Assembly (NCBI GenBank): GCA_963663235.2
Contig: CAXXNO010000012.1
Location: 32,001-96,000, forward strand
Direction: 5' to 3'
Source: Dehalococcoidia bacterium
GTDB lineage: Bacteria > Chloroflexota > Dehalococcoidia > Bin125
DNA: 64,000 bases
In this document: positions 2,573 to 29,906 of the stretch, piece by piece
Layout of the letters: each line of letters starts with the position of its first letter
Position numbering within the stretch: the first letter of the stretch is position 1
The notes under the pieces: model-generated
Told to the model about the DNA's origin: nothing
What the model saw: the letters and a program-made list of their open reading frames with translations, nothing else
Databases searched by the model: none
Position numbers and translations under genes: made by a program

Positions 2573-3658
2573 GTGATGACCACCGCCGGGAAGCCAAACG
2601 CCGCGCGCAAACAGCCGCCCGTTCGCAAGCCACGCTCACCGCGCGGCAAGCAGGCGCAGCGGGCTGCGGAGATCCACCCGCAGTTCGACCTCTCCAATCA
2701 GGCGCTGGTCGATCTCTGGTACAAGATGGTGCTGGCCCGCCGCATCGCGGAGCGCTGGTTCATCTTGAACCGGCAGGGGCGCGCCCCCTTCGTGATCACC
2801 GGCCAGGGCCACGAGGCCACCCAGGTCGGGACCGCCGCCGCGCTCACCCCCGGCAAGGACTGGGCGGTGCCCTACTACCGCGACATCGGCGTCGTCCTGG
2901 TGCTGGGCATGACGCCCTACGAGCTGATGCTCAACGTCTTCGCCAAGGCGGACGACCCCAACAGCGGCGGACGCCAGATGCCCACGCACTGGAGCCACCG
3001 CGACCTGCGCATCGTCTCCGGCTCCAGCGTGGTTGCCACCCAGGTGCCCATCGCGGCGGGTGTCGCCTGGGCCGCCAAGCTGCGCGGCGAGGACAGCGTC
3101 ACGGTGGCGTACTTGGGCGAGGGCTCGACGAACCAGGGCGACTTCCATGAGGGACTGAACTTCGCCAGTGTGCAGCGCCTTCCCCTGATCGTGGTGGTGG
3201 AGAACAACGGCTACGCCATCACCGAGCAGCAGGAAAAGGAGATGGCCATCCAGGACGTCGCCGACCGCGCAGCCGCCTACGGCATTCCCGGTGTCGTGGT
3301 CGATGGCAACGACCTGCTGGAGGTCTATCGCACCATGCAGTGGGCGGTGCACCAGGCCCGCACCGGCCACGGCCCCACCTTGCTGGAGGCCAAGACCTAC
3401 CGCACGGTCCCCCACTCCTCTGACGACGACGACCGACGCTACCGCACCCGCGAGGAGCTGGAGCTCTGGCTCAAGCGCGATCCCATCGACCGCTTCCGCA
3501 AGCTCCTCATCGACGACGGCGTCCTCACCGACGAGCACGCCGAGCAACTGCTGAACGACGCCACGGAGGAGATCCGCGCCGCCCAGGCCCAGGCCGAGGA
3601 CCGGGCCGATCCCGACCCCGCCACCCTCCTCGACCATCTCTTCGGATCGCCCGCATGA
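2573..3658 (+). CDS. bkdAA: 2-oxoacid (probably branched-chain) dehydrogenase E1 alpha
   Basis: GHEA, PYYRD, GRQMPTHW, TPP motif GEG...NN, HSSDDD. Confidence 0.85.
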   Translation: MMTTAGKPNAARKQPPVRKPRSPRGKQAQRAAEIHPQFDLSNQALVDLWYKMVLARRIAERWFILNRQGRAPFVITGQGHEATQVGTAAALTPGKDWAVPYYRDIGVVLVLGMTPYELMLNVFAKADDPNSGGRQMPTHWSHRDLRIVSGSSVVATQVPIAAGVAWAAKLRGEDSVTVAYLGEGSTNQGDFHEGLNFASVQRLPLIVVVENNGYAITEQQEKEMAIQDVADRAAAYGIPGVVVDGNDLLEVYRTMQWAVHQARTGHGPTLLEAKTYRTVPHSSDDDDRRYRTREELELWLKRDPIDRFRKLLIDDGVLTDEHAEQLLNDATEEIRAAQAQAEDRADPDPATLLDHLFGSPA

Positions 3659-4635
3659 CCGCCGTCTCCATCGCCGATGCCATCCGCTCCGCGCACCAGG
3701 AGATCATGCGCGCCGACGAACGGGTCATCCTGCTCGGTGAAGACGTCGAGACCGGCGGCGTCTTCCGCATCACCGAAGGCTTGCTCGATGAGTTCGGCCC
3801 CCAACGGGTCTTCGACACGCCGCTGGCGGAGTCCGGCTTCGTAGGCGCGGCTATCGGCGCCGCGCTCGCGGGGATGCGCCCAATCGTGGAGATCCAGTTC
3901 GTGGACTTCATTCTCCCGGCCATCAACCAGCTGATCTCCGAGGCCGCCAAGATGCGCTACCGCAGCATCGGCGAATGGTCGGTGCCCATGGTCGTGCGCT
4001 CCCCCTACGGCGGCGGCGTGCACGGCGGCCTCTACCACTCCCAGTGCTTCGAGGCGCTCTTCGCCCACGTCCCCGGCTTGAAAGTCGTGATGCCCGCCAC
4101 CCCCGCCGACGCCAAGGCGCTCCTGCACACCGCCGTAGCCGATCCCGACCCCGTGATCTTCCTGGAGCACAAGCGCTCCTACCGGCTCATCAAGGACGAG
4201 GTGCCGGAGCCGCTGCCGGAGGTGCCCATCGGCAAGGCGATCGTCCGCCGCGACGGTGACGACGTCGCCATCATCGCTACGGGCCTCATGGTCCACGAGA
4301 GCCTCGCCGCCGCCGAGCAACTGGCCGGCGAGGGAGTCGACTGCCTGGTGCTGGACTTGCGCTCCATCGCCCCGCTGGACCGTGATGCCATCATCGACGC
4401 GGTGCAGCGCACCGGCAAAGTGGTGATCACGCACGAGGATCACCTCACCGGCGGCATCGCCGGCGAGGTCGCGGCGATCATCGCCGCCGACGCCTTTGAG
4501 CACCTGGACGGCCCCATCAAGCGCGTGGCCGGGCCCGATGTCCCCGCCATGGGCTACCACCCCAACTTCGAGAAGGCCTTCATCCCCGACGCCGAGCGCA
4601 TCGCCGCCGCCGCGCGGGATCTCGCGGCCTACTGA
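3655..4635 (+). CDS. bkdAB: 2-oxoacid dehydrogenase E1 beta
   Basis: GEDV, GGVFR, DTPLAE, EIQF, HSQ motifs; ATGA overlap with E1 alpha. Confidence 0.85.
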   Translation: MTAVSIADAIRSAHQEIMRADERVILLGEDVETGGVFRITEGLLDEFGPQRVFDTPLAESGFVGAAIGAALAGMRPIVEIQFVDFILPAINQLISEAAKMRYRSIGEWSVPMVVRSPYGGGVHGGLYHSQCFEALFAHVPGLKVVMPATPADAKALLHTAVADPDPVIFLEHKRSYRLIKDEVPEPLPEVPIGKAIVRRDGDDVAIIATGLMVHESLAAAEQLAGEGVDCLVLDLRSIAPLDRDAIIDAVQRTGKVVITHEDHLTGGIAGEVAAIIAADAFEHLDGPIKRVAGPDVPAMGYHPNFEKAFIPDAERIAAAARDLAAY

Positions 4636-6982: not shown

Positions 6983-7936
6983 GGTTCTATCAGATCTCAG
7001 GGCTCGTCGGCGTAGCGTCGCCTCGTTCATGACGCAACGAGGAGACGCCGATGCACTGTCCGCACTGCCGCTCGACTGCGACGACCAAGCGCAGGCATCG
7101 CACGACGCTAGGCTACCAGCGATTCAACTGTCGCGCGTGTGGACGGCGCTTCAACGAGCGGACCGGCACGCCCTTCAACGATCTCCAGTACCCGACGGAC
7201 CTCGTGCTGCTCGCCGTGCTGTGGCGCCTGCGGTACAAGCTCAGCTTCCGGGACGTCGCCGAACTGCTCCTCGAGCGAGGCTACACGGTGACGCATGAGA
7301 CGATCCGCGATTGGGAGTTCCGCTTCGCGCCACTCCTGGCGGACCGGCTTCGCGCCAAGCGGCGCGGTCGCGCGGGCGTCTCCTGGTACATCGATGAGAC
7401 CTACGTGAAGGTCGCCGGGCGATGGTGCTACCTCTATCGCGCGATCGACCGGGAGGGCGCGCTGCTCGATTCGATGCTGAGCGCGCACCGCGACAAGCAC
7501 GCCGCGCGACGCTTCCTGCGGGGTCTCATACAGATCGCCGAACGGAAGCCCTTACGCATCACGACCGACGCGCATCCCGCGTATCGCAAGGCGATCCGGT
7601 GGATCGTCGGGCGGAAGGTGCGACATCGCTGCAATCAATACCTCAACAACTGGATTGAGCAGGATCACCGCGCCATCAAGCAGCGCTACTATCCGATGCG
7701 GGGCTTCGGGCGGTTCGCTTCCGCTGCCCAGTTCTGCGCGGCCTTCGATGCGCTGCGCCAGTACTTTCGCGTTCCGCCCCGGCCCGGACTACCGATCCCG
7801 TTGGCGACGCGGCGCCCGCTGTTCGTCGCCCGCTGGCGGTCCCTGATCCAGGAGATGCAGGTCGCCTAGGACACCATCAACGCTCGCCGGATCACCACGC
7901 ATCGTTGGCCCCGCTGCCCTCAGATCTGACAGAACC
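6983..7936 (+). mobile_element. IS6-family insertion sequence (copy 1)
   Basis: IRs GGTTCTATCAGATCTCAGG (6983) and CCTCAGATCTGACAGAACC (ends 7936), 17/19 match; no target duplication seen. Confidence 0.9.
7051..7869 (+). CDS. IS6-family transposase with N-terminal zinc ribbon
   Basis: CPHC...CRAC; WYIDETYVKV, YLYRAID, TTD, NNWIEQDHRAIK. Confidence 0.92.
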   Translation: MHCPHCRSTATTKRRHRTTLGYQRFNCRACGRRFNERTGTPFNDLQYPTDLVLLAVLWRLRYKLSFRDVAELLLERGYTVTHETIRDWEFRFAPLLADRLRAKRRGRAGVSWYIDETYVKVAGRWCYLYRAIDREGALLDSMLSAHRDKHAARRFLRGLIQIAERKPLRITTDAHPAYRKAIRWIVGRKVRHRCNQYLNNWIEQDHRAIKQRYYPMRGFGRFASAAQFCAAFDALRQYFRVPPRPGLPIPLATRRPLFVARWRSLIQEMQVA

Positions 7937-8610
7937 CGGTGAGGGTGTTCAGGTATCGATTGCATCGGTGCCGCACCGTTCTCCCCAGGATCCCGCGGAT
8001 CGCTCGGCGGTACGGCGGATGCGGGTCCGTCGTGACACGCTCGGGCTTGCGCTCGGCCACGTCCACCAGGCGGCGCAGGAAGCGCCGGGCGGCATGCGTG
8101 TCGCGCTGCGCCCTCCGCCTCGAATCGAGGAGTGCCCCCTCGCGATCGATGGCCCGCTACAGGTAGCACCAGCGGGCCGCGCCCTTCACGGAGGTCTCAT
8201 CGATGGACCAGGCGACCCCGGCGCGGCCGCGGCGCTTGGCCCGGAGCGGGTCCGCCAGGAGCAGCGCGAGGCGGAACTCCCAACTCCGGATCGTCTCGTG
8301 CGTGACTGCGTGGCCCCGCTGGAGGAGCAGCGCGGCCACGTCCCGGAAGCGGAGCGTGTACCGCAGGCGCCACAGCACGGCGAGGAGCACGAGGTCCGTC
8401 GGGTCCTGGAGATCGTTGAACGGCGTGCCGGTCCGCTCGTTGAAGCGCCGTCCGCATGCCCGGCAGCGCAACCTGGGGTAGCCGAGCGTGGTGCGGGGCT
8501 TGCGCTTGATCGTCGCGGTCGAGCGGCAGTGCGGACAGGGCATGGCGTCTCCTCGTCGCGTCATGGGCAAGGCTACGCCACGCCTACGAGTCCTGAGATC
8601 TGACAGAACC
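7937..8610 (-). mobile_element. IS6-family element (copy 2): truncated, transposase pseudogene (ATG 8543, internal TAG 8157-8159)
   Basis: IR GGTTCTGTCAGATCTCAGG at 8610. Codon-colinear with copy 1 for ~200 codons, then cut at 7937 by the right IR of copy 1. Confidence 0.9.
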
Positions 8611-8942
8611 AGCAGATGCTGTGCTGCCCGTGCGTGTGCCACCGGCCGACGTCGTTTCGCCGGGCTCAGAAGTTTCCCGAGGCCACCTCACGCAGGATCG
8701 AGTTGTCCAGCGCCTGCTCCGCGACCAGCTGCTTCAGCCGCGCGTACTCGCGCTCCAGCTCCTTCAGCCGCTTCGCCTGGTCGACCCGCATCCCGCCGTA
8801 CTCGCGACGCCAGCGGTAGTAGGTCTGCTCACTCACCCCGAGCTTGCGCACCGCCTGGCCCACCGTATCGCCCTGGGCGAGGTGGACCTCTGCCTCCCGC
8901 AGCTTGGCGATGATCTCCTCAGCTGCGTACCGCTTCCGCTTA
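8611..8942 (-). mobile_element. IS3-family fragment (orfA plus start of orfB)
   Basis: KRYAAEEIIAKLREAE...TYYRWRREYGG...SGNF, GGAAAC frameshift region, then LSPAKRR; cut by the IS6 end at 8610. Confidence 0.88.
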
Positions 8943-20257: not shown

Positions 20258-20608
20258 AGCCGCGCCGCCCCCGTCGGCAATACGTTCGCCACGCTCAACA
20301 ATGGCGACGCCTTCTTCATCCGCCTGACCGCCGCCGCGACGTGGGAGCAGCCCGCGCCGTAAGCCACGCCGTCGCGCCCCGAGGAACGTGAGCACCTGAT
20401 CAGAGCCGGCGCTTTACGGAGTGTCTAAGGAATTTCCGCCAGGGGCCCCTAGCCAATAGATAGCGTCGCGGGAACCGGGGGTGCCTCGCGCCTCAGGCCT
20501 ATTGGATCAGCCGGATCGAGGCTCTTGGGAAACTCCTGTTCTGACGTAAAAGCGGCTGAGGGGCAGCGTGGGGCCACCAGGGGCCGATCTCGGGCATCGG
20601 ATCGAGGT

Positions 20609-20875
20609 CTAGGGGGCGTCGGGGGGATCGGCCGGAGGCAAGGCGCGGCGGCCGGCGCTTGTGAGTTTGTAGACCCTGCGAGGAGGAGCCGTCGTCGTAT
20701 CCCATCGACCCGACAGGAGGCCCTTACTGTCGAGCCGTTGCAAGGCCCCGAAGATAGTACGTCTCGGCTGGCCTAGAGCCTCGGCAAGCGCCCAGCCGTG
20801 ACGGGGCGACTCCGCCAGCGCTGCGAGGATCGTCTTCTCCGAGTCCAAGAGCCTGTCTGCCTTGCGTCGTGGCAT
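20609..20875 (-). CDS. PadR-family regulator (copy 2)
   Basis: HGWAL, LQRLDSKGLLSGRW, RRVYKLTSAGR; clear paralog of 18408-18746. Confidence 0.85.
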   Translation of the reverse strand: MPRRKADRLLDSEKTILAALAESPRHGWALAEALGQPRRTIFGALQRLDSKGLLSGRWDTTTAPPRRVYKLTSAGRRALPPADPPDAP

Positions 20876-20897
20876 CGCCCTTAATCTAGGCGTTCGT

Positions 20898-20950
20898 GGC
20901 ACTAGCGCGATAGACTACTTGACACTATTAGCGCTAGTGCCGTATACGAT
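20898..20950. promoter_or_regulatory. Palindromic operator overlapping a sigma70-like promoter divergent from PadR
   Basis: GGCACTAGCGC / GCGCTAGTGCC 11-bp IR around TTGACA (20919), followed by TATACGAT. Confidence 0.55.
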
Positions 20951-20952
20951 AG

Positions 20953-22202
20953 TGACCTGCCCCCCCAGAACCGGTCCAGATCCTGTGCGAGGATTCGGGC
21001 CGGTGCGAAGGCCTCCCCGAGTCGGCATGGCACGCAAGCGGTACGCGGCCGAGGAGATCATCGGCCACCTGCGGGAGGCGGAGGGGGTGCTCGCGCCGGG
21101 GGAATCGGTCGCGCCGGTCGCGCGCCGCCTCGGCGTGGCCGAGCCAACGTATTACCGCTGGCGGCGGGAGGACGGGGGGCTGCGGGTCGACCCGGCCAAG
21201 CGGCTGAAAGAACGGGAGCGCGAGAACAGTCGGCTGAAGCGGGTGGTGGCCGATCAGGCGCGGGCCAACGCGATGGTGCGGGACGTCGCAGCGGGAAACT
21301 TCTGAGCCCGGCCAAGCGGCGCCGGGCGACATCCTACCGCACGGACCCGTACGCGGTGGCGGAGCGGCGGGCCGGCCCGGTCACCGGCCAGGCGCGGGCG
21401 ACCCAGCGCGACGTGCCCCGGCCGTCCCCGGATGCGCCGGCGCTGATCGCGCGCAGCGTCGCGCTGGCCCCCCGCTGCGGCCGCTACGGCTCCCGTCGCA
21501 TCCCGGCCCGGCTGCGCCAGGCGGGCTGGCGGGTGAACCCCAAGCGGGTCGAGCGGCGCTGGCGTCAGGAAGGCTGGCGGGTCCCCGGGAAGCACCCCCA
21601 ACGGGGCCGCCGCTGGCTCGCGGCCGGCTCGCTGGTGCGGCGGCGGGCCGAGCGGCCGTCCCACGTCTGGTCCTCCGCCTTCGTCTTCGACCGCACCGCC
21701 GAGGGGCGCCCGGTGCGGATCCTCGCCATCGTGGATGAGGACCACCCGCGAGGGCCTGCGTCTCGACGTCGCCCGCCGACGGCGCCGCGACGTCGGCCTG
21801 GCGCGGTTGGCCCAGCTGTTCGTCGAGCGCGGGCCGCCGACGTTTCTGCGGTCCGCCAACGGCCCGGCGTGCACCGCCACCGCGGTGCGGGACTGGCTGC
21901 ACCGGGTCGGGGGCACGACCCGCTTCATCGAACCGGGCAGGCCTTGGGCGAACGGCTCTGGGGAATCGTTCAACGGCAAGCTGCGCGACGCGTGCCTCAA
22001 TCGCGAGCGCTTCGACACCCTGCTGGAAGCCCAGATCCTCATCAAGGGCTGGCGGCGGGAGGACAACCCGATCCGCCCCCACCGTGCCCTCGGCTCCCGC
22101 CCCCCCGCCCCGGAAACGCAGCAACCCCGGGAACGTCCCATGACGCGCGTCCCGGCGATCGGACTCACCTTAACGACTGGTACAACGATCGGGGGCAGGT
22201 CA
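20953..22202 (+). mobile_element. Full-length IS3-family (IS407-group) element, heavily mutated; orfA 21027-21305, orfB ~21302-22170 with one frameshift near 21742
   Basis: IRs TGACCTGCCCCC / GGGGGCAGGTCA; 1250 bp; recognisable but degraded orfA/orfB motifs. Confidence 0.92.
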
Positions 22203-22338
22203 GCGGTGGCCGTCACTGGTGGGACAACTCGCTCAACGTCTATGAGGTCGGTGTTACAATTTTCGTGTTCGAGCACGATCATCGCGTGCTCCCTTCGCCG
22301 AGGCGCCGCCCAACACCGGGCGGCGCTCTCATATCCGA

Positions 22339-22545
22339 CTACCGTCCGGCGGCAGTAGCCAACTCGGTTTTCTCCGCGATCCACTTCTCAAGTGCCACAC
22401 GGGACACGCGCCGCTGCCCGCCAACTTTCATGCTGGGCAACGTCCCATCCATGATCAGTGGCCACGTCGCGGACTCGCTCCGATTGATCAACTTGGCAAC
22501 GTCGGAGACTCGGAGCAGGAGTGGTTCCACAACTTTTCCCTTCAT
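22339..22545 (-). CDS. Excisionase-like HTH_17 DNA-binding protein
   Basis: LLRVSDVAKLI...LPSMKVGGQRRVSRVALEKWI; near the integrase. Confidence 0.8.
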   Translation of the reverse strand: MKGKVVEPLLLRVSDVAKLINRSESATWPLIMDGTLPSMKVGGQRRVSRVALEKWIAEKTELATAAGR

Positions 22546-22632
22546 CGAAACCTATCCGCCTCTCGATCAGTCTTGTATGCTTCGCCTGGGCCGTCCAACG
22601 CTCTTGTGACGTATCAGCGTTACGGAGGGGAC

Positions 22633-23625
22633 ATGGCAGTAGTATCCGACACCATCGAGGTGATCGAAACCGTCGTCCCCTCGCGACTTGTCGAGGTGCG
22701 GGATGGATACGTCTATGTGCAAGACCCAAAGATGATTCTCACGAAGGACGAACTGAAGAAGATTGAGGACGCGTCCGACTATGTCTTCCAATTTCGACGC
22801 AGCCCCGAGAACGTCATCATCGAGTTCGTCGATCTCGAAGAAGGTGACGACGATCGGCTGGCCCAATTCGTCCGCCGATTCGGCCTTCTCGGCTTGTGCC
22901 AACACGGGAAGCCCCACAATCACCTCCCAGGTTGTGGGGCAGAGCGGGTGTCCTGGATCGAAGGCGAGGAAGACACGCCATCGCTCTGGAAGGCTCCACG
23001 GAGCCGTACAGAAGTTGGTATTCGCGAGCGTGTTGAAGCGTGGTACCACTATCGCGACCGGGCTGAAGCGCTCCTCACGATTGCGGTGTTTCTCAGAGGC
23101 AAGGTAGATGCGCGTCGAGGGAGAGTTCGGGGGGCATGGCGCACATTGATCGACGATGGGGGTGCCGACCAGTACCCCACGATCCCGACGCTGATGAGAA
23201 ACCGCGTCGCAGCCATCACAATGCACTCAGAGAACCTGAACGACTGGCTTCAAACCGCGGCACTGGCACTCTCGCAGGCTTGGGATCCGAATGAGGAACG
23301 CGGAAGAACGGAGTTGACCGGAACGCTGTTGGGCAATCTGGGGTATCAAATTCTGGCCGCGACGAACGGGTCAACGCTCCTGGCGTATTGTGACAACTGC
23401 GCTCGGCTCTTCGAACCGAACCCGCGTGTCCCCGAAGACCGCGGTAAGTACTGCAAGCTATGTCGCTCGAAGAACGTGAGCGGTCGAGTCCGCCAGCAGC
23501 GATTCCGTGAGCGGCAGCAGGAGATCCGCCGGTTAAACGCGGACGGTGTACCCATCCGCGAAATCGCGACGCGCATGGACGCCAAGCCAGAGAAGATTCG
23601 TAAGTGGTTAGGAGTCAAAAGATGA
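22633..23625 (+). CDS. Hypothetical regulator with CxxC...CxxC zinc finger and C-terminal HTH
   Basis: CDNCARLF...KYCKLC...RQQRFRER; GVPIREIA; divergent from the excisionase; ATGA-coupled to the integrase. Confidence 0.6.
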   Translation: MAVVSDTIEVIETVVPSRLVEVRDGYVYVQDPKMILTKDELKKIEDASDYVFQFRRSPENVIIEFVDLEEGDDDRLAQFVRRFGLLGLCQHGKPHNHLPGCGAERVSWIEGEEDTPSLWKAPRSRTEVGIRERVEAWYHYRDRAEALLTIAVFLRGKVDARRGRVRGAWRTLIDDGGADQYPTIPTLMRNRVAAITMHSENLNDWLQTAALALSQAWDPNEERGRTELTGTLLGNLGYQILAATNGSTLLAYCDNCARLFEPNPRVPEDRGKYCKLCRSKNVSGRVRQQRFRERQQEIRRLNADGVPIREIATRMDAKPEKIRKWLGVKR

Positions 23626-24758
23626 GCCGACGTGCCCGCGGTGAGGGCTCCGTTTTCAAGAGGTCCGACGGGAGATGGGCCGGCTAGTTGGTGTTGGGCT
23701 GGAAGGATGGGAGACGCGTTCGTAAGTTCGTTTACGGACGCTCCCAGGCTGAGGCTCTGCGGAAGCTCAGGGCCGCACAGAGAGCACAGGACGACGGACT
23801 GCCTCAGCCGTCCGAGCGAGAGACGGTCGGGGGTTTCCTGCGCGTCTGGATCGAGGAATCGGCACAGGTCCGCCTCCGCCCTTCCACGCTTCAGTCGTAC
23901 ACATCTATCGCCTACGGGAATTTGATTCCGGCCTTTGAAAAGACGCGGCTCGCGAAACTCAGCCCCACAGACGTCGAGGCCTACGTCGCCGAGAAGTCGC
24001 GAGTGGGGCTATCGGGGTACTCCGTCCGTAATCACGTCGCCCTCCTCCGCAGAGCCTTGAACGACGCAGTCCGCTGGGGCCTCGTGCCCCGCAATGTCGC
24101 CGCCGGCGTGAGGCCACCCCGGCTGCGCGACGCGAGCAGCCGCCCCTTCGACGAGGCGGAAGCCCAGCAGTTCCTTGCCCATGTACAAGGCGACCGCCTT
24201 GAGGCTCTCTTCGCTCTCGCGCTCGGCTTGGGCCTGAGACAGTCGGAATTATTGGGGCTCACGCATGATGCCGTCGATCTGAATCGCAGGCGTCTGCAAG
24301 TTCAGGCTCAGCTCCGGCGTCATCACGGTCGCTTCTGGCTGGAGGAACCGAAGACGGCGCGCAGCCGCCGCACCATGTCGCTTGAACTCCCGCTCGTCGA
24401 AGTCGTTCGGCGCCGTCGTGTCCTTCAGAAGGAAGAACAACTCGCTGCCGGCCCAGCGTGGCAGGGGAATGAGCTTGGCCTGCTGTTCAACACGGAGCTG
24501 GGAGGTCCCATCTCAGCCGCCACACTGAGCCGGCGCTTCCACGCCCTCTGTGAGGGAGCCGGTCTTCGCCGCGTGCGGTTCCACGACCTTCGCCACACAT
24601 ACGGGAGCCTCTTGGCGGAGAAAGGTGTCCCGATGCGGACGGCGATGGATCTCATGGGCCACACGCAGATCTCGACCACCGCCCAGGTCTACCAACACGT
24701 CTCCGAGGAGTCGATGCAGGACGCTGCCGCGCGGGTGTCAAGGGCTCTTTGGCGCTGA
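23622..24758 (+). pseudogene. Tyrosine integrase (ICEBs1/phage type) with in-frame TAG at 23685
   Basis: MSRRARGEGSVFKRSDGRW start; catalytic GLRQSE, K, HDLRH, GH, Y all present. Confidence 0.88.
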
Positions 24759-24911
24759 CTCTGCTTCGGGTGACTACGCCATCGTTTGACAGGCATTCTG
24801 ACAGGCACAGGACTGGACGTGGGCGGAGGGAATTGGACGTGGTTGGAGTCTCACTATCGAGTGAACCTGGTGCTTGGAGGACGCCGGTCTGCCTGAGAGG
24901 GCTCGCCTTGA

Positions 24912-24956
24912 TTTCCTAAACCATGTGCGCAGGTTCGACTCCTGCCGGGGGGACCA
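24912..24956 (+). other. att site: 3' half of tRNA-Arg(CCT)
   Basis: TTCCTAA anticodon loop, GCAGG-TTCGACT-CCTGC T arm and CCA end, but no D arm or acceptor 5' strand upstream; 150 bp after the integrase. Confidence 0.78.
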
Positions 24957-25048
24957 TATCGCACGTGGGGTACTCCGGCCCGCTCTCCCGACTAACACCT
25001 ACCCCTCGCGACGATAGCTTCGCGGATAGGGTTTTGAGCCACCACAGG

Positions 25049-25078
25049 TTGACAGATAAGAACATGTGTTCGTATCTT
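25049..25078 (+). promoter_or_regulatory. SOS promoter with LexA box
   Basis: TTGACA (25049) - 18 nt - TATCTT, with GAAC-ATGT-GTTC (25060-25071) in the spacer. Confidence 0.88.
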
Positions 25079-25133
25079 GCTGATCCTGCCGGGGTATCTA
25101 GGGCCGCTCTTGGGCTGCCGGTGGGGACCGGGG

Positions 25134-26399
25134 GTGAACGCCATCGCTCCGAGCGTCGCAGCTTCCAGGCGGACCGCCGCTGTACGCATCCCGCACTTCG
25201 CCTTGGCATTGGCGCAAGCCGCCAGAGGGTGTCTCCTGCGCCACCGCGGTCCGCCGCTGGTGCTCTGCGACGCCCATAGCGCCCCGGCGCGTGTGCTCGA
25301 CGCCTGCGACCAAGCAACACGGTTCGGCGTTCGCGCCGGGATGCCCGTGCGGGACGCCCTCGCCTGCTGCCCCACGACCGAATTCCTCTCGGCCGATCCC
25401 CTCCAGGCGCCGCGGGAGCGGGAGCGCTGGCTCGACGCGCTGGAGGCTGTCAGCCCGACCGTCGAGCCCGACACGCAGGATATCGGCACCGTGCTCGTGG
25501 ATCTGGAAGGGCTCGATCAGCTGCACGGCGGAGACCTCGGCGTGGTCAAGGCCCTCGCGGCCACGACGAAACAGGCACTCGGGCTGGAGCCGTGCATCGG
25601 CGTGGCGGACGGGCCATTCGCCGCCCGCGCGGCGGCCGTCAGCGCGATTCCTTCAGCGCCGGCGTTCGTGCCGCGGGGTCAAGCGCCCCGCTATCTCACC
25701 GCGCTGGGAGTGGAGCAGTTGCCGCTCGGCAGGGATGTCACCCACCGGCTGCGCACACGGTTCGGCATCCGCACGATCGGGGAGTTCGCGGCGCTCCCGC
25801 TGGGGGCGGTGCAAGCACAGTTCGGACTAGCGGGCCGCGAGGCGTGGCACCTGGCACACGGCCGCGACCGGCGACGGCTGCGGCCGCGGGTCCACGCCGC
25901 GCACCTAGGCGAACGACTGCAGTTCCCCTCGCCCACCGCCAGCGGCGAAGCGCTCCTGACCGCCGCACGCCATCTGGTGACGCGGCTCTTGCAACGGCCC
26001 GAGCTGGAGCAGCGCGCCGTGCGGCGGGTGACTGTCTGGATCCAGGTCGCCGACGGTCCCAACTGGGAGCGGAGCGTGACGTTGCAGGAGGCGTCGCGCG
26101 ACGCGCAGCGGCTGCGGATCGTGATTCGGCGCGAGTTGGAGCGGTTGTGGGCGGCCGGGCAGACAACGCTCCCCGGTCCCGTGGCCGAGATCGGGCTGGA
26201 GTTCGCCGACCTCTGCACGGAAAGCGGCAAGCAGGCCGCGCTGTGGACCGGGAACGGCCGGCGCACCAAGCAGTTGGACGACGCGGTGCGCCAGCTCCGG
26301 GCGCGCTATAGCGAGCCCACGCTTTTCCGCGTCGTGGAGGTGGAGCCGTGGTCGCGCTTTCCCGAGCGGCAGGCGGCGCTGATCGCCTACGACCCCTGA
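25134..26399 (+). CDS. imuB: ImuB-like inactive Y-family polymerase
   Basis: GVRAGMP..DA...CP, SPTVE, IGVADGPFAARAAA, GIRTIGEFAALP; lacks catalytic acidic motifs; upstream of dnaE2. Confidence 0.82.
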   Translation: MNAIAPSVAASRRTAAVRIPHFALALAQAARGCLLRHRGPPLVLCDAHSAPARVLDACDQATRFGVRAGMPVRDALACCPTTEFLSADPLQAPRERERWLDALEAVSPTVEPDTQDIGTVLVDLEGLDQLHGGDLGVVKALAATTKQALGLEPCIGVADGPFAARAAAVSAIPSAPAFVPRGQAPRYLTALGVEQLPLGRDVTHRLRTRFGIRTIGEFAALPLGAVQAQFGLAGREAWHLAHGRDRRRLRPRVHAAHLGERLQFPSPTASGEALLTAARHLVTRLLQRPELEQRAVRRVTVWIQVADGPNWERSVTLQEASRDAQRLRIVIRRELERLWAAGQTTLPGPVAEIGLEFADLCTESGKQAALWTGNGRRTKQLDDAVRQLRARYSEPTLFRVVEVEPWSRFPERQAALIAYDP

Positions 26400-26647
26400 G
26401 ACGGCCGCGGCCCCTGGGGGTCGAGGTCTCCGCACAGGGGATGCCGGCGGCGGTCCGCACCGCGGCGGGCTGGGTGGAGGTCGTCGCCGTGCTCGACCAT
26501 TGGCGGCTCGACGACGAGTGGTGGCGCGAGCGGCCGGAGCAGCGCTGGTACTACCGGCTCGCGCTCGCCGGCGGGCGCACGCTGACCGTGTTCCACGACC
26601 GCGCCAGCGGCGCGTGGCTCGCCCAGGAGTACGGACGGGCGGGCTGA
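26348..26647 (+). CDS. Small DUF6504-like protein (ImuB C-terminal module)
   Basis: LRPLRRPRP, WRLDDEWW, RWYYRL, W-rich tail. Start uncertain. Confidence 0.7.
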   Translation: MVALSRAAGGADRLRPLRRPRPLGVEVSAQGMPAAVRTAAGWVEVVAVLDHWRLDDEWWRERPEQRWYYRLALAGGRTLTVFHDRASGAWLAQEYGRAG

Positions 26648-26648
26648 G

Positions 26649-29600
26649 ATGGCCTACGTCGAGCTGCACTGCCACAGCGGCTACTCGTTCCTAGACGGCG
26701 CTTCCACGCCGAACGAGCTGGCGCACTACGCCCACGCCCTCGGCCATTCGGCGCTCGCGCTCACGGACACCGACGGGCTCTACGGCGCGATGGAGTTCGC
26801 GAAGGCGGCGAGCGCCTGGGGGGTCCGGCCGATTATTGGCGCGGAGGTCACGCTGGCAGGGCCCGACGGGTCGCGGCCACGCATGGATCGCCCGGCCGAA
26901 GGCTATCGGCTGCTTTTGCTCGTCGAGAACGCCCACGGCTACGCCAACCTCTGCCGCCTGATCACGGCCGCGCACCTCGCCCACGAGAAGGGCGAACCGG
27001 CGCTCGACCCGGCGCTGCTGGCGACACATGCGAACGGCCTGATCTGCCTGACCGGCTCGCCAGATCACGGCGAGGTGGCGCGCCTCGCGTCGGCCGGCGA
27101 CCTCGACGGTGCACGCGCCGCCCTCGCGCGACTCGTCGAGTGGTTCGGGCATTCCCGGATCTACGTCGAACTCCAGCACCACTACGCCCCCGGCGACCGC
27201 AACAGGAACGAGCGGTTGGTGGCGCTGGCCCGCGACTGCGGCCTGGCAGTGGTGGCGACGAACGACGTGCACTACCACGCGCCGGACCGGCGTCGTCTGC
27301 AGGATGTGTTGGTCGCGATCCGCACGCACCAACCGCTCGACGCCTGCCACCGCGAGCGCTTCCCCAACGGCGAGTATTACCTGAAGTCCGAGGCGGAGAT
27401 ACGGGCCGCCTTCGCCGACTGGCCCGAGGCGATCGAGCACACGGGCGAGGTAGCGGAGCGCTGCCGCTTCGACATCGAGTCCCAGCTCACCTACCGCTTC
27501 CCCGATTACCCCACGCCCCAGGGCGAGCCGCCCGACGCCTATCTCCGCGCCGTCTGCGAGGCCACGATACGCGACCGCTACAGCACCGTCACCGGCGCGG
27601 TCCCTCCGAACGTGCAAGCGCGGCTTGAGGAGGAGCTGCGACTGATCGCCCGGCATAGACTCGCGGGTTTCTTTCTCATCTACCGCGACCTGATCGAGGA
27701 GGGGAAACAAGTGCTGGCGGAGCTGCGGGCCGAGCGCGGCGACCCCACGCCCGTGACCCACCCGCCGGGACGGGGGCGCGGCTCCTCGGTCGGATCGCTG
27801 GTCTGCTACCTGATCGGGCTCTCCCACATCGACCCGATCGCCAACGACCTCTTCCTGGGACGCTTCCTCAACGAGGAGATGGCAGCCGTTCCCGACATCG
27901 ATCTGGACTTCTCACGGGAGGTGCGGGAGCGGATGATCGCGCGCGTCTACGAGCGCTGGGGGCGGGATCATGTCGCGCTGACCTGCACGTTCCCGACCTA
28001 CCGCACGCGCGGGGCGATCCGGGAAGTGGGGAAGGCGCTCGGGCTTCCCGCACCGGCCCTGGACAAGCTCGCCAAGCTCGCCGCCCGGACCGGCGTGGAG
28101 GACCTGCCGCAGGAGATGGCGCGGCTGCCCGAGTTCCGCGACCAGACCCGCACCCCGATGTGGCGGCACTTCTTCCGCCTCGTGCAGGAGATCCACGGGC
28201 TGCCGCGGCACGTCAGCCAGCACGTGGGCGGCATGATCATCTCCTCCACTCCCCTCGTGAAGTGCGTGCCGCTGGAGAACAGCCGGATGCCGGGGCGAGT
28301 GGTCTGCCAGTGGGACAAGGACAGCATCGACGACGCCCGCTTCATCAAGATCGACTTCCTGGCCCTGGGGATGCTCTCAGCGGTGGACGAGTGCCTAGAC
28401 CGGATCCGCGCGCGCACGGGCAAGAGCGTGGATTTGTCGCGCATCGACTTCGCCGACCCGCGCGTCTACTCGGCGATCCAGGCCGGCGACACGGTGGGCA
28501 CGTTCCAGGTCGAGAGCCGCGCACAGATCCAGAGCATCATCCGCACGCGGCCCGAGAACCTGGAAGACCTGACGGTCCAGGTGGCGATCATCCGGCCGGG
28601 CCCCATCGTCGGCGGCGCGGTGAACCCGTACATCAATCGGCGGATGGGGCGGGAGCTCGTGACCTACGACCACCCGCTCTTGGAGCCCGCCCTGAAAGAG
28701 ACGCTGGGGGTGGTGCTCTATCAGGAGCAGGTGATCGAGGTCGTGATGGCGATCGGCGGGTTCTCGCCCGGACAGGCGGACCAGATGCGCCGGGCGATGC
28801 GCCGCAAGCGGTCGTTCGAGGCGATGGCGGAGTTCTGGGAGGCCTTTCGGGCCGGCGCAGCCGAGCGAGGCATTGCCCGTGATTTGGCGGAGACGATCTT
28901 TCGCAAGCTGCTGGGGTTCGCCGAGTTCGGCTTCCCCAAGAGCCACGCCGCCGCCTTCGGGCTACTGGCCTATCAGTCGAACTGGCTGCGGGTCCATTAC
29001 CCGGCGGAGTACCTGGCGGCGTTGCTCAATGCGCAGCCAATGGGCTTCTATTCGCCCGAAGTCCTGGTCGGCGACGCGAAACGCCACGAGGTGCCCCTCC
29101 TCGCGCCCGATATCAACCGCAGCACGGACCGCTGCGCGCCGGAAGGCGAGGGCGTACGTCTGGGTCTCGCGATGGTCCGGTCGATCGGTGAGACGCCGGC
29201 GAAAACGATCGTCCAGGAACGGGATCGCTACGGCGCCTACGGCTCGCTGTTCGATCTCTACCGGCGCGTGCCGTTGCGGCGGGAGGGGATCGAGGCGCTG
29301 ATCGAAGCGTGCGCCTTCGACTGGACGGGGCTGGAACGGCGGGAACTCCTCTGGCAGGTGGGATTGTTCTACCAGCCTGTCGCGCAGCCGGCCGGTGAGG
29401 CGGCCCGAACGGCGCCGAGTCCCCGGCAGTTACCGTTGGCGCTCCCGACGGTGCAGGACCAGCCGCCGCTGCGGCCGATGAGCCGCTGGGAACGGCTGGT
29501 GGCCGACTACCGGGCCCTCGGCCTTTCCACCGTCGATCACCCGATGGCGGCGCTGCGAAACTGGCTGGATCAATTGCACGAAGGCGTAGTGCGGGTGGCC

Positions 29601-29906
29601 GGGCTGGAGGAGATGGCCGCGGATGGCCCGGTGACCATCGCGGGCCTCGTGGTCTGCCGCCAACAACCGGAAACGGCCAAAGGGTTCATCTTCCTGCTAC
29701 TGGAGGACGAGACGGGGCTGGCCAACATCGTCGTCAGTCCACAGGTGCACAAGCAGTTCCAGGAGCTGGTGCGGCTAGAGCCGTTCGTCGTGGTGCACGG
29801 CGACTTGGAGCGCAAAGACGGCGTGACCAATGTGATAGGCCGGTCGCTGGAGCGGCTCGAGGTGCCGCCGGAGATGGTCGCGCCGGAGGCGCACAGCTTT
29901 CACTAG
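26649..29906 (+). CDS. dnaE2: Error-prone DNA polymerase III alpha (ImuC)
   Basis: PHP ELHCHS.YSFLDG, GRGSS, PDIDLDF, GFPKSHA, C-terminal AHSFH; in an SOS cassette. Confidence 0.93.
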   Translation: MAYVELHCHSGYSFLDGASTPNELAHYAHALGHSALALTDTDGLYGAMEFAKAASAWGVRPIIGAEVTLAGPDGSRPRMDRPAEGYRLLLLVENAHGYANLCRLITAAHLAHEKGEPALDPALLATHANGLICLTGSPDHGEVARLASAGDLDGARAALARLVEWFGHSRIYVELQHHYAPGDRNRNERLVALARDCGLAVVATNDVHYHAPDRRRLQDVLVAIRTHQPLDACHRERFPNGEYYLKSEAEIRAAFADWPEAIEHTGEVAERCRFDIESQLTYRFPDYPTPQGEPPDAYLRAVCEATIRDRYSTVTGAVPPNVQARLEEELRLIARHRLAGFFLIYRDLIEEGKQVLAELRAERGDPTPVTHPPGRGRGSSVGSLVCYLIGLSHIDPIANDLFLGRFLNEEMAAVPDIDLDFSREVRERMIARVYERWGRDHVALTCTFPTYRTRGAIREVGKALGLPAPALDKLAKLAARTGVEDLPQEMARLPEFRDQTRTPMWRHFFRLVQEIHGLPRHVSQHVGGMIISSTPLVKCVPLENSRMPGRVVCQWDKDSIDDARFIKIDFLALGMLSAVDECLDRIRARTGKSVDLSRIDFADPRVYSAIQAGDTVGTFQVESRAQIQSIIRTRPENLEDLTVQVAIIRPGPIVGGAVNPYINRRMGRELVTYDHPLLEPALKETLGVVLYQEQVIEVVMAIGGFSPGQADQMRRAMRRKRSFEAMAEFWEAFRAGAAERGIARDLAETIFRKLLGFAEFGFPKSHAAAFGLLAYQSNWLRVHYPAEYLAALLNAQPMGFYSPEVLVGDAKRHEVPLLAPDINRSTDRCAPEGEGVRLGLAMVRSIGETPAKTIVQERDRYGAYGSLFDLYRRVPLRREGIEALIEACAFDWTGLERRELLWQVGLFYQPVAQPAGEAARTAPSPRQLPLALPTVQDQPPLRPMSRWERLVADYRALGLSTVDHPMAALRNWLDQLHEGVVRVAGLEEMAADGPVTIAGLVVCRQQPETAKGFIFLLLEDETGLANIVVSPQVHKQFQELVRLEPFVVVHGDLERKDGVTNVIGRSLERLEVPPEMVAPEAHSFH

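What the first reader, a model, noticed from the sequence alone, without database searches (positions are those of the whole stretch)
20953..22202. Full-length IS3 saturated with A->C / T->G transversions: candidate RIP-like transposon hypermutation
Seen: the element keeps both IRs, its full 1250-bp length and only one frameshift, yet its conserved residues are systematically changed. Against the in-window orfA homolog at 8666-8942 the changes include Q->P four times (CAG/CAA->CCG/CCA), Y->D (TAC->GAC), L->R twice (CTG->CGG), D->A and V->G. Against the remembered IS3 orfB consensus: YGYRRITALL->YGSRRIPARL, VNHKR->VNPKR, WSYDF->WSSAF, SDNGPEF->SANGPAC, PGSPWENGY->PGRPWANGS, DECL->DACL, YN..RPHS.LGY->DN..RPHR.LGS. 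By my manual count about 45-50 replacements are each explained by a single A->C or T->G, and two catalytic Asp are lost. Established: ordinary decay is usually transition- and indel-rich, A:T->C:G is the 8-oxo-dGTP/mutT signature, and fungal RIP is a C->T repeat-targeted system. Inference: a burst of element-targeted mutagenesis acting on both strands silenced this IS. I know of no characterised bacterial system that does this, but I could not search the literature.
Basis: partly seen in the sequence, partly recalled or inferred. Interest (0 to 1): 0.9.

Follow-up and report, generated by a model that had tools for sequence, protein, structure and literature searches.

The report
Dead IS3 copies with A-to-C hypermutation
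A broken jumping gene in a sponge-associated Dehalococcoidia genome, present in about 17 copies, has changed almost only by A-to-C and T-to-G substitutions while the DNA around it has not, a pattern that is real and that no described bacterial process readily explains.

Summary
Window 20953-22202 is one of 12 full-length and 5 truncated copies (96-99% identical) of an IS3-family element in a 2.75-Mb Dehalococcoidia MAG. Against a sister genome's copy, 58 of 61 differences are A:T<->C:G transversions (49 towards C/G). Among the G000 copies 51 of 69 polymorphic sites are of that class. Contigs built from four public runs of four studies show both alleles at depths of hundreds, so it is not an assembly artefact. 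It is not a genome-wide bias: at four-fold and non-coding sites of other duplicates in the same genome the class makes up 14-19% of differences, and another IS of the clade shows 3 of 81. Hits fall on codon positions 1 and 2, on both strands equally, spare both ends, rise from 16 to 26 to 52 across three genomes, and are mostly shared between copies. This argues against one burst and against independent in-situ (RIP-like) decay. No mechanism is shown. My best guess (about 0.4) is a homology-dependent process between copies: A.G-to-C.G-biased heteroduplex repair and/or repair synthesis that uses oxidised dGTP. Five literature searches found no description of this.

The parts
20953..22202 (+). 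Hypermutated, non-autonomous IS3-family element ('type A' copy), 1250 bp, 74.7% G+C in flanks of about 61-65%
20953..20964 (+). Left terminal inverted repeat. The first 106 nt of the element carry no signature change in any of 23 copies
22191..22202 (+). Right terminal inverted repeat. The last 36 nt carry no signature change in any copy
21012..21018 (+). 7-bp insertion private to this copy. All other copies lack it, and so do the Logan contigs that cover the place
   Evidence: alignment; table 4
21027..21305 (+). orfA (92 codons plus TGA), open but with Q>P, Y>D, L>R, V>G and K>H replacements
21293..21299 (+). GGGAAAC slippery heptamer, the presumed programmed -1 frameshift site. Reading from it gives an intact 294-295-aa OrfB in intact relatives
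   Evidence: inference by comparison
21293..21736 (+). orfB, N-terminal part (-1 frame); first catalytic Asp replaced (WSYDF>WSSAF)
21737..21745 (+). +1 indel plus T>G (GAGGACCAC where intact elements have GAGTA-CAC). It breaks orfB and is shared by all type A copies, by G003 and G041 copies and by the 85% copies
21738..22130 (+). orfB, C-terminal part (shifted frame); second catalytic Asp replaced (SDNGPEF>SANGPAC); the E of ESF is kept

Best explanation
SHOWN. This is a transposase-dead IS3-family lineage that nevertheless stands at 17 or more copies. Its interior has been driven from A:T to C:G by a process that acts on the element only. The process hits both strands, ignores codon position, is strongest in the middle of the element and is absent from both ends. 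It accumulates stepwise across copies and across at least three host genomes. INFERRED, my commitment. The process depends on homology between copies. Dispersed copies pair in ectopic recombination or gene conversion. A:T/C:G heterozygous positions then form A.G mismatches, which are corrected to C.G by short-patch repair of the kind known for A/G-specific adenine glycosylase (MutY). The accompanying repair synthesis may also insert oxidised dGTP opposite A. Either way, A>C/T>G alleles arise or spread preferentially among copies, while other mutation classes stay private to single copies. The copies themselves were presumably multiplied in trans by an intact relative with near-identical ends (G000:C14:9713-10955).
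For: The signature is real. G003a against the window copy gives 61 differences: 25 T>G, 24 A>C, 6 C>A, 3 G>T and 3 other. Among 17 G000 copies 51 of 69 polymorphic sites are of the A<->C/T<->G class. Logan contigs of 4 runs from 4 studies carry both alleles at depths of hundreds, and 42/53, 48/59, 39/50 and 63/69 variant places are of this class.

It is restricted to the element. Four-fold sites of 35 independent non-IS duplicate pairs give 51/368 and non-coding sites 47/344. Five duplicates of 99% identity or more give 9/47 at neutral-class sites, against 51/69 for the element (odds ratio 12.7, p=4e-9). A flank of 3540 bp shows 0 of 11 in this class beside an IS stretch with 7 of 8. Intact relatives show 4-9 of 77-95.

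The hits are not filtered by selection on the protein: they fall on 27/102, 49/190 and 5/35 A/T sites at codon positions 1, 2 and 3. All other changes on the lineage sit mostly at position 3.

The geometry fits a homology-dependent process. None of the 50 A/T sites outside positions 107-1209 is hit (P=6e-6). The centre has 59/187 against 20/122 for the inner flanks (p=0.003).

The alleles spread between copies. Signature alleles are singletons in 6/47 cases, other classes in 14/21 (p=1.6e-5). Of 595 informative site pairs, 243 fail the four-gamete test, and 26% already fail at under 50 bp.

A truncated G003 copy inside an otherwise identical 2061-bp duplicate carries two derived alleles identical to those of other G003 copies.

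The enzymes are plausible. G000 has a MutY-like HhH glycosylase (205.7 bits), a dinB-like gene and two imuB-like genes, and no genome of the family has a MutT equivalog above cut-off (0/26).
Against: No heteroduplex, conversion tract or enzyme activity is shown. Decline of linkage with distance is weak (permutation p=0.14). G041 holds a single full copy with 24-26 hits, which under this model must have arrived already mutated. Two other multi-copy elements show no signature, although they may simply be young: 5 identical type B copies in G003 (0 substitutions in 10 of 10 pairs) and a 955-bp element with 7 copies in G000. The MutY-like hit is below its cut-off of 286.5 bits and covers only model positions 3-212 in a 256-aa frame, so the 8-oxoG-reading C-terminal domain may be missing. 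My rough arithmetic suggests that drive among 17 copies explains part of the roughly 15-fold or greater excess, not clearly all of it. Sites hit in both G000 and G003 number 14 where about 4.6 are expected by chance (my arithmetic). One site is hit in parallel in G003d and G005a. So mutational hot spots contribute as well.
Confidence: 0.4

Rival explanations
1. Mutagenesis is coupled to transposition. IS3-family elements move by copy-out-paste-in (recalled). If the copy-out synthesis is done by a low-fidelity polymerase that accepts oxidised dGTP, every new copy gains A>C/T>G changes, and the element's clock ticks per transposition and not per host generation.
For: The signature is restricted to the element and is strand-symmetric. 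The load rises along a lineage that kept multiplying. Shared rather than private alleles fit mutations made before the last insertions. Sparing of the ends could reflect selection for ends that can still be mobilised. Y-family and DnaE2-like polymerases are present.
Against: Five type B copies of the same IS family in G003 are identical in all 10 pairs, so copy-out is not generally mutagenic there. There is no private end hit in 23 copies, and density falls towards the ends even inside the coding region, whereas whole-element copying predicts a flat profile. 41% of site pairs are incompatible, so recombination or parallel hits are needed in addition. About 0.35 private hits per copy implies hundreds of serial transpositions.
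Confidence: 0.2
2. The lineage picked up the changes while living in a mutT-type mutator host or on a replicon copied by an error-prone polymerase. Already-mutated variants then spread horizontally into G003, G041 and G000.
For: The derived sets are largely nested across genomes: against C9_135170, G041a has 3 derived states of its own and lacks 21. A single copy in G041 carries 24-26 hits. In the runs the depth over the IS is about 100 times that of the flanks, so the element is abundant in the community beyond this genome. The 95% purity of the class (58 of 61) is what I recall for mutT strains.
Against: The 17 G000 copies differ from each other by the same signature, so either diversification continued inside G000 or there were many separate imports. 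A host in which a fifth of neutral A/T sites changed would carry a very heavy load. No such host or replicon was found: the left-end 31-mer gave 0 hits in viral contigs.
Confidence: 0.12
3. A dedicated, RIP-like defence recognises this repeated or mobile DNA and mutates it.
For: The signature is restricted to the element, acts on both strands, is very pure and destroys catalytic residues. A second, separate IS lineage in another genome (G005a) has 16 such hits, 15 of them at codon positions 1 and 2. The same site is hit in parallel in two lineages. Five literature searches found no description.
Against: Private hits are few (6/47), whereas independent in-situ action predicts many. Other repeats in the same genomes are untouched. 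The sequence context is weak. No candidate gene was found: the neighbouring imuB-dnaE2 cassette does not track the signature (15 of 26 genomes have an ImuB-like gene, G005 has none). I know of no enzyme chemistry that turns A into C directly.
Confidence: 0.1
4. The host has a genome-wide A:T>C:G mutational bias (no MutT), and only neutral, dead IS copies reveal it.
For: No MutT equivalog above cut-off in 26 of 26 genomes of the family. The equilibrium G+C implied by the IS-derived rates (about 0.91, my arithmetic) is close to the G+C of four-fold sites (7470/8405 = 0.89).
Against: Four-fold sites give 51/368 and non-coding sites 47/344 in this class, where I calculate about 55-59% expected from the IS-derived rates. 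Recent duplicates give 9/47. The 85% pair carries the same inactivating +1 indel, so it was presumably dead throughout its divergence, yet it differs by 15 changes of which 2 are A>C/T>G. Non-coding regions remain about 30-40% A+T. The gene calls behind these controls were crude (GC3-based ORFs).
Confidence: 0.05
5. It is a sequencing or assembly artefact. For example, loss of one channel in two-colour chemistry gives exactly A>C and T>G (recalled).
For: The class is closed under strand complement, as such an artefact would be. The genome is a MAG, and the library types of the runs are not on record.
Against: Both alleles stand in contigs at depths of 100-2800 in four runs of four studies dated 2019-2025. 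Three further independently assembled genomes show the signature. Equally repeated elements in the same assemblies show none. The changes are 5% of sites. I saw contigs, not raw reads.
Confidence: 0.03

Closest known systems
Repeat-induced point mutation (RIP) of fungi
   Same: Hypermutation confined to repeated mobile DNA, on both strands, destroying the coding capacity of many copies.
   Different: RIP gives C>T/G>A transitions in a dinucleotide context, acts on each resident duplicate before meiosis and lowers G+C (recalled). Here the change is A>C/T>G, the context is weak, G+C rises from 0.70-0.715 to 0.74-0.75, the alleles are mostly shared between copies, and other repeats escape.
mutT (8-oxo-dGTP) mutator signature
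   Same: An almost pure, strand-symmetric A:T>C:G spectrum: 58 of 61 differences are of the A:T<->C:G class, 49 of them in the A:T>C:G direction.
   Different: A mutT defect acts on the whole genome. Here neutral-class sites elsewhere in the same genome show 14-19%.
GC-biased gene conversion / MutY-type A.G mismatch correction
   Same: A directional advantage of C:G over A:T alleles in heteroduplex. It needs homology on both sides, which fits the spared ends and the central maximum, the excess of shared alleles and the mosaic copies.
   Different: As far as my five searches show, it has not been described as specific to one transversion class or as remodelling an IS family. Transitions towards G/C show no excess here (T>C 6 and A>G 3 against G>A 8 and C>T 5). 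No enzyme was tested.
Diversity-generating retroelements (adenine mutagenesis)
   Same: Targeted changes at A positions of one defined sequence.
   Different: DGRs change A to any base on one strand through a reverse transcriptase and a template repeat (recalled). Here T changes as often as A, only to C/G, over a whole 1.1-kb interior in many copies. I did not search for a reverse transcriptase.
Non-autonomous IS derivatives mobilised in trans (MITE-like)
   Same: Dead coding region, conserved ends, high copy number, and an intact relative with near-identical termini in the same genome.
   Different: Full length is kept (1241-1252 bp). Trans-mobilisation is inferred, not shown.

Membership tests
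IS3 family (IS407-like group) | DDE transposase matching the IS3 family model | tested here: met
   NF033516: the intact relative C14 OrfB scores 257.5 bits (cut-off 160). The window pieces score 37.1, 53.3 and 73.9 bits, each below cut-off because the gene is broken and mutated.
IS3 family (IS407-like group) | Two overlapping frames orfA/orfB joined by a -1 slippery site | tested here: met
   GGGAAAC lies at the end of orfA. Reading from it gives 294-295 aa OrfB in C14 and in L075/L077/L078/L079. Frameshifting itself was not tested.
IS3 family (IS407-like group) | Terminal inverted repeats beginning TG...CA | tested here: met
   12/12 complementary TGACCTGCCCCC/GGGGGCAGGTCA. That this sequence marks the IS407 group is recalled.
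IS3 family (IS407-like group) | Short target-site duplication (3-4 bp, recalled) | tested here: not met
   No direct repeat of 3 bp or more flanks any of 12 full-length G000 copies, 3 G003/G041 copies, 3 independent type B copies or the JGI relatives L075 and L078. Only the 85% copy has GACTC on both sides.
Autonomous (functional) IS | Intact DDE triad and uninterrupted orfB | tested here: not met
   Both Asp are Ala, and a +1 indel lies at 21737-45.
RIP-like repeat-targeted hypermutation | Each resident repeat copy mutated independently in place | tested here: not met
   6 of 47 signature alleles are private to one copy.
RIP-like repeat-targeted hypermutation | All sufficiently long repeats of a genome affected | tested here: not met
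   The 955-bp element with 7 copies in G000 shows 13 transitions, 6 AC/TG and 2 C<->G, or is identical. The 5 type B copies in G003 show 0 substitutions. Both may be young.
RIP-like repeat-targeted hypermutation | C>T/G>A transitions made by a cytosine methyltransferase-like enzyme | tested here: not met
   The spectrum is A>C/T>G. The enzyme was not searched for.
mutT-type mutator | A:T>C:G dominates the spectrum | tested here: met
   81 of 121 site-level derived alleles are A>C or T>G. 58 of 61 differences between G003a and the window copy are of the A:T<->C:G class, 49 of them A>C or T>G.
mutT-type mutator | Genome-wide action on neutral sites | tested here: not met
   51/368 at four-fold sites, 47/344 at non-coding sites, 9/47 in recent duplicates.
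mutT-type mutator | Absence of MutT | tested here: inconclusive
   TIGR00586 passes its cut-off in 0 of 26 genomes of the family. Every genome has 5-9 weaker Nudix matches, and only 3 of 14 control genomes pass the cut-off.
Biased gene conversion between copies | Exchange between copies (mosaic alleles) | tested here: inconclusive
   243 of 595 site pairs fail the four-gamete test. Decline of linkage with distance is not significant (permutation p=0.14). Parallel mutation is an alternative.
Biased gene conversion between copies | Favoured alleles at higher frequency than other classes | tested here: met
   Singletons are 6/47 for signature alleles against 14/21 for the rest, p=1.6e-5. A change of spectrum over time would give the same result.
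Biased gene conversion between copies | An A.G-specific repair activity in the host | not testable with these tools
   There is only a MutY-like hit below cut-off (205.7 against 286.5 bits).
Diversity-generating retroelement | Changes at A of one strand only | tested here: not met
   A 42/193 and T 39/169.

The most novel reading that the evidence does not exclude
Sponge-associated Dehalococcoidia have a dedicated, sequence- or repeat-guided system that rewrites A:T to C:G inside invading insertion sequences. This would be a bacterial counterpart of fungal RIP with new chemistry. It would have hit at least two separate IS lineages in four genomes while leaving the element ends and the flanks untouched.
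Probability: 0.12. Interest if true: 0.95.

Novelty: new variant of a known kind. Interest (0 to 1): 0.75.

Why it matters
Bacteria are thought to control insertion sequences by deletion, drift and selection, not by mutating them. Here a whole IS family has been rewritten by one transversion class at about 20% of its A/T sites while neighbouring DNA evolved normally.

If this is a by-product of inter-copy recombination with biased mismatch repair or oxidised-nucleotide repair synthesis, it is a clean natural read-out of a class-specific conversion bias in an uncultivated lineage. It would also be a way in which repeats can gain G+C and die without selection. If it is a dedicated system, it is a new kind of genome defence.

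There is also a practical point. Such copies are still called as transposase genes by similarity searches although they are dead. Their spectrum could be mistaken for a mutator phenotype or for sequencing error.

Tried and rejected
Artefact. Rejected (both alleles in contigs of 4 runs from 4 studies) and on clean repeats in the same assemblies. I saw only contigs, no raw reads. The window copy's private 7-bp insertion is not seen in those contigs, and contigs drop rare variants.

Global mutT-like bias. My first simple control (150 of 762 differences in this class) turned out not to be decisive, because selection on coding DNA could produce it. I therefore classified sites with crude GC3-based ORF calls. 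The bias is rejected on those, with the caveat that the gene calls are crude.

DGR. Rejected on strand symmetry.

ImuB/DnaE2 cassette beside the IS as the cause. An ImuB-like gene is found in 15 of 26 genomes and not in G005, so it does not track the signature. In passages of PMC7198004 a Caulobacter imuC mutant shows more, not fewer, A:T>C:G changes.

Target-site duplications as evidence of recombination. Dropped, because even the identical type B copies lack them.

An empty-site paralogue for the window copy. Not found. The flank duplicates break at the IS end (right flank) or at a contig end 27 bp before it (left flank).

Clustering of new hits. Nearest-copy differences are spread along the element (that script stopped with an error after the 16 G000 rows).

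Decline of linkage with distance. Weak, permutation p=0.14.

Sequence context. Only a depletion after A (AAN 2 of 60) and before T.

Wider searches. The left-end 40-mer gave 0 hits in metagenome contigs and the 31-mer gave 0 in viral contigs. The right-end 34-mer gave 7 JGI contigs, all of another, intact subtype.

Literature. Five searches listed nothing on IS-restricted A:T>C:G change. I read passages of PMC7198004 and PMC13212565 only; all other papers were seen as listings. Supplements were not consulted.

Not done. Raw-read support per copy; a search for a reverse transcriptase; structure prediction; a screen for genes that correlate with the signature (only 4 genomes carry it); the search for homologous proteins and the protein-library tools were not used.
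Full report
THE ELEMENT. Window 20953-22202 is a 1250-bp element with perfect 12-nt terminal inverted repeats. It has 74.7% G+C in a neighbourhood of 61-65%. The window is G000:C12:32001-96000 of a 2.75-Mb genome in 14 contigs, with 68% G+C. Related records found with its protein are titled 'MAG: Dehalococcoidia bacterium'. The runs that hold the sequence include sponge metagenomes.

The element belongs to the IS3 family. An intact relative in the same genome (C14:9713-10955) has a 92-aa OrfA and a 294-aa OrfB read from a GGGAAAC slippery site. That OrfB scores 257.5 bits against NF033516, whose cut-off is 160. The window copy matches the same model only in three degraded pieces.

MANY COPIES. 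G000 holds 12 full-length copies and 5 copies cut by contig ends, all 96-99% identical to the window copy. I call these 'type A'. It also holds two copies at 85% identity, which lie in a segmental duplication, and the intact C14 copy at 73%.

THE SPECTRUM. I polarised changes with the 85% copies.
- Within the family, 46 of 67 derived alleles are A>C (25) or T>G (21). The reverse changes number 3.
- Differences of every other kind from the 85% copy are constant over the 12 full-length copies (116-119), while A>C+T>G varies from 51 to 64.
- A sister genome of another genus (G003, 2 contigs) has type A copies at 94-95% identity. G003a against the window copy gives 61 differences: 25 T>G, 24 A>C, 6 C>A, 3 G>T and 3 other.
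- A further genome (G041, record OY762959.1) has one full copy with an intermediate load. Of its 44 differences from the window copy, 36 are in this class.
- Polarised by two outgroups, the signature load rises stepwise: 16 in G003a, 26 in G041a and 52 in the window copy. The other changes stay at 38-41 (one search gives 15, 24 and 50).
- A separate lineage in a fourth genome (G005a, 83% identical, without the +1 indel) carries 16 signature hits.
- Across 23 copies, 81 of 121 site-level derived alleles are A>C or T>G. They touch 81 of 362 ancestral A/T sites, A and T equally (42/193 and 39/169).
- The sequence context is weak.

Four intact relatives from JGI metagenome contigs (L075, L077, L078, L079; 85-87% identical to G003a) show the unmutated motifs. 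They differ among themselves by 77-95 substitutions, apart from the near-identical pair L075 and L077, which differ by one T>G. Of those 77-95, only 4-9 are in the A<->C/T<->G class. One +1 indel at 21737-45 breaks orfB. It is shared by all type A copies and by the 85% copies.

NOT AN ARTEFACT. Logan contigs of four runs from four studies (2019-2025) were laid on 20300-22900. In the two runs that hold the flanks, both alleles stand at depths of hundreds. For example, at 21085 the other allele T has depth 329 of 610 in X8 and 521 of 1314 in X9. The two other runs carry relatives with their own A>C/T>G differences. Places by kind of change in this class are 42/53, 48/59, 39/50 and 63/69. Depth over the IS is about 100 times the flank depth. 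These are contigs, not raw reads, and library types are not on record. In the same assemblies, five type B copies in G003 show no substitution in any of 10 pairs. A 955-bp element with 7 copies in G000 shows transition-dominated or no differences.

NOT A GENOME-WIDE BIAS. A plain count over other duplicates (150 of 762 in this class) is not decisive, because selection removes most A/T changes in coding DNA. I therefore called ORFs crudely by GC3 (1722 ORFs, GC3 0.859) and classified sites.
- In 35 independent duplicate pairs (60.3 kb), the class makes up 51 of 368 differences at four-fold sites and 47 of 344 at non-coding sites. From the IS-derived rates I calculate about 55-59% expected.
- In five duplicates of 99% identity or more (32.65 kb), two of which flank the window copy, neutral-class sites give 9 of 47, against 51 of 69 among type A copies (odds ratio 12.7, p=4e-9).
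- Beside two IS copies, a 3540-bp flank has 11 substitutions, none in this class. The adjoining 461 bp of IS has 8, of which 7 are in this class. The junctions differ by 156 bp, so the two copies may not be strictly allelic.
- The two 85% copies both carry the +1 indel and differ by 15 changes, of which 2 are A>C/T>G.
- A MutT equivalog passes its cut-off in 0 of 26 genomes of the family, but only 3 of 14 control genomes pass it, so this is uninformative.

WHAT THE PATTERN SAYS ABOUT THE PROCESS.
(a) The signature hits ignore codon position: 27/102, 49/190 and 5/35 of A/T sites at positions 1, 2 and 3. The other changes of each lineage sit mostly at position 3; in the window lineage they number 29 at position 3 against 11 at positions 1 and 2. 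So the ordinary divergence dates from when the element was functional, and the signature was laid on top without selection on the protein.
(b) Both ends are spared. None of the 50 A/T sites outside positions 107-1209 is hit (P=6e-6), and none of 35 non-coding A/T sites. Density is highest in the middle: 59/187 against 20/122 in the inner flanks (p=0.003).
(c) Signature alleles are mostly shared between copies (6 of 47 are singletons), whereas other classes are mostly private (14 of 21; p=1.6e-5). Resident copies are therefore not decaying independently by this route. On terminal branches the spectrum is near normal.
(d) The copies are mosaics. Of 595 informative site pairs, 243 fail the four-gamete test, and 26% already fail at under 50 bp. 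Decline of linkage with distance is weak.
(e) There is some parallelism. Sites hit in both G000 and G003 number 14 where about 4.6 are expected (my arithmetic). One T>G site is shared by G003d and G005a.
(f) In G003, a 2061-bp composite made of a type B copy and a truncated type A copy is duplicated. Its only 3 differences lie within 42 bp of the type A part. Two of them match alleles of other G003 copies.

MECHANISM (INFERRED). All G000 copies are dead yet numerous. An intact relative with near-identical termini is present, so multiplication in trans is likely.

For the signature, I favour a homology-dependent process between copies. Heteroduplex between copies that differ A:T against C:G contains an A.G mismatch. 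Short-patch correction of A.G to C.G is the known activity of MutY-type adenine glycosylases (recalled). Repair synthesis by Y-family polymerases readily places oxidised dGTP opposite A (recalled). This accounts for several features at once:
- the restriction to the element;
- the strand symmetry;
- the central maximum and the spared ends;
- the mosaic structure at single-site scale;
- the rarity of the reverse changes;
- the excess of shared signature alleles.

G000 has a MutY-like gene below cut-off, a dinB-like gene and two imuB-like genes.

Weak points are listed in the Against line. They include the single loaded copy in G041, the untouched young repeats and a rough quantitative shortfall. 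The rivals are, in my order: error-prone copy-out during transposition, a past stay in a mutator host or replicon, a dedicated RIP-like defence, a global bias, and an artefact.

COMPARISON WITH KNOWN SYSTEMS AND NOVELTY. The spectrum equals the mutT signature, but it is local. The targeting resembles RIP, but the chemistry, the sharing pattern and the escape of other repeats differ. DGRs are excluded by strand symmetry. Five full-text searches listed no report of A:T>C:G change restricted to an IS in bacteria. I read passages of two papers only. I rate the finding as a new variant of element-restricted hypermutation or biased conversion. I keep a probability of about 0.12 that a dedicated system is behind it.

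Noticed in passing
window 23688-29906 (+): A tyrosine integrase (23688-24758), an ImuB-like Y-family protein (25077-26399; IMS and IMS_C domains) and a 1085-aa DnaE2-like Pol III alpha (26649-29906) lie directly downstream of the IS. The 9.3-kb block is duplicated at G000:C9:139293-148579 at 99.6% identity. G000's ImuB-like protein is at most 38% identical to those of 14 other genomes of the family, so it looks horizontally acquired.
   Followed up: partly
window 6983-7937 (G000:C12:38983-39937): A second multi-copy element of about 955 bp, with 7 copies in G000 at 97-100% identity. Its differences are dominated by transitions. It was not classified.
   Followed up: partly
window 8643-8938 (-): An IS3 orfA-like fragment, 77% identical to positions 81-376 of the element.
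   Followed up: no
all copies: G000; L030, L046, L049, L052, L055, L056, L075, L078: No target-site duplication of 3 bp or more flanks any type A copy, any of the identical type B copies or the intact JGI relatives L075 and L078. Only the 85% copy has GACTC on both sides. This is unexpected for an IS3-family element.
   Followed up: partly
L059:9965-12025 and L060:9973-12033 (G003): A 2061-bp composite, made of a full type B IS and a type A copy lacking its first 429 nt, occurs twice. It is bounded by one end of each IS, as if the pair had moved as a unit.
   Followed up: partly
L031:1501-2732 and 2737-3985 (G005): Two related IS copies (83% and 79% identical to the window element) stand head to tail, 4 bp apart.
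   Followed up: no
G000, 35 duplicate pairs: C<->G transversions make up 159 of 368 differences at four-fold sites of duplicated genes. This is unusually high. It may reflect constraint on GC3.
   Followed up: no
window 20909-22213 against its flanks (table 2): Summed contig depth over the IS is about 100 times that of the flanks in runs X8 and X9. That is far more than 17 copies per genome would give, so the element is abundant in other members of the community or in another form.
   Followed up: no
window 21737-21745; G000:C8:175120-176361: The 85% copies share the type A +1 indel, yet their private changes are mostly at third codon positions (44 of 63 coding), as if they had long been functional. 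Either the indel was transferred between the lineages or it arose twice.
   Followed up: partly
G000:C10:1-4937 against G000:C12:467335-471332: The 13.8-kb contig C10 repeats the end of C12 (3.5 kb at 99.6% identity, then an IS copy), with an extra 156 bp before the IS. It may be a strain variant or a true duplication.
   Followed up: partly
window 20609-20902 (-): A PadR-like regulator (97 aa) ends 51 bp before the left end of the IS.
   Followed up: no
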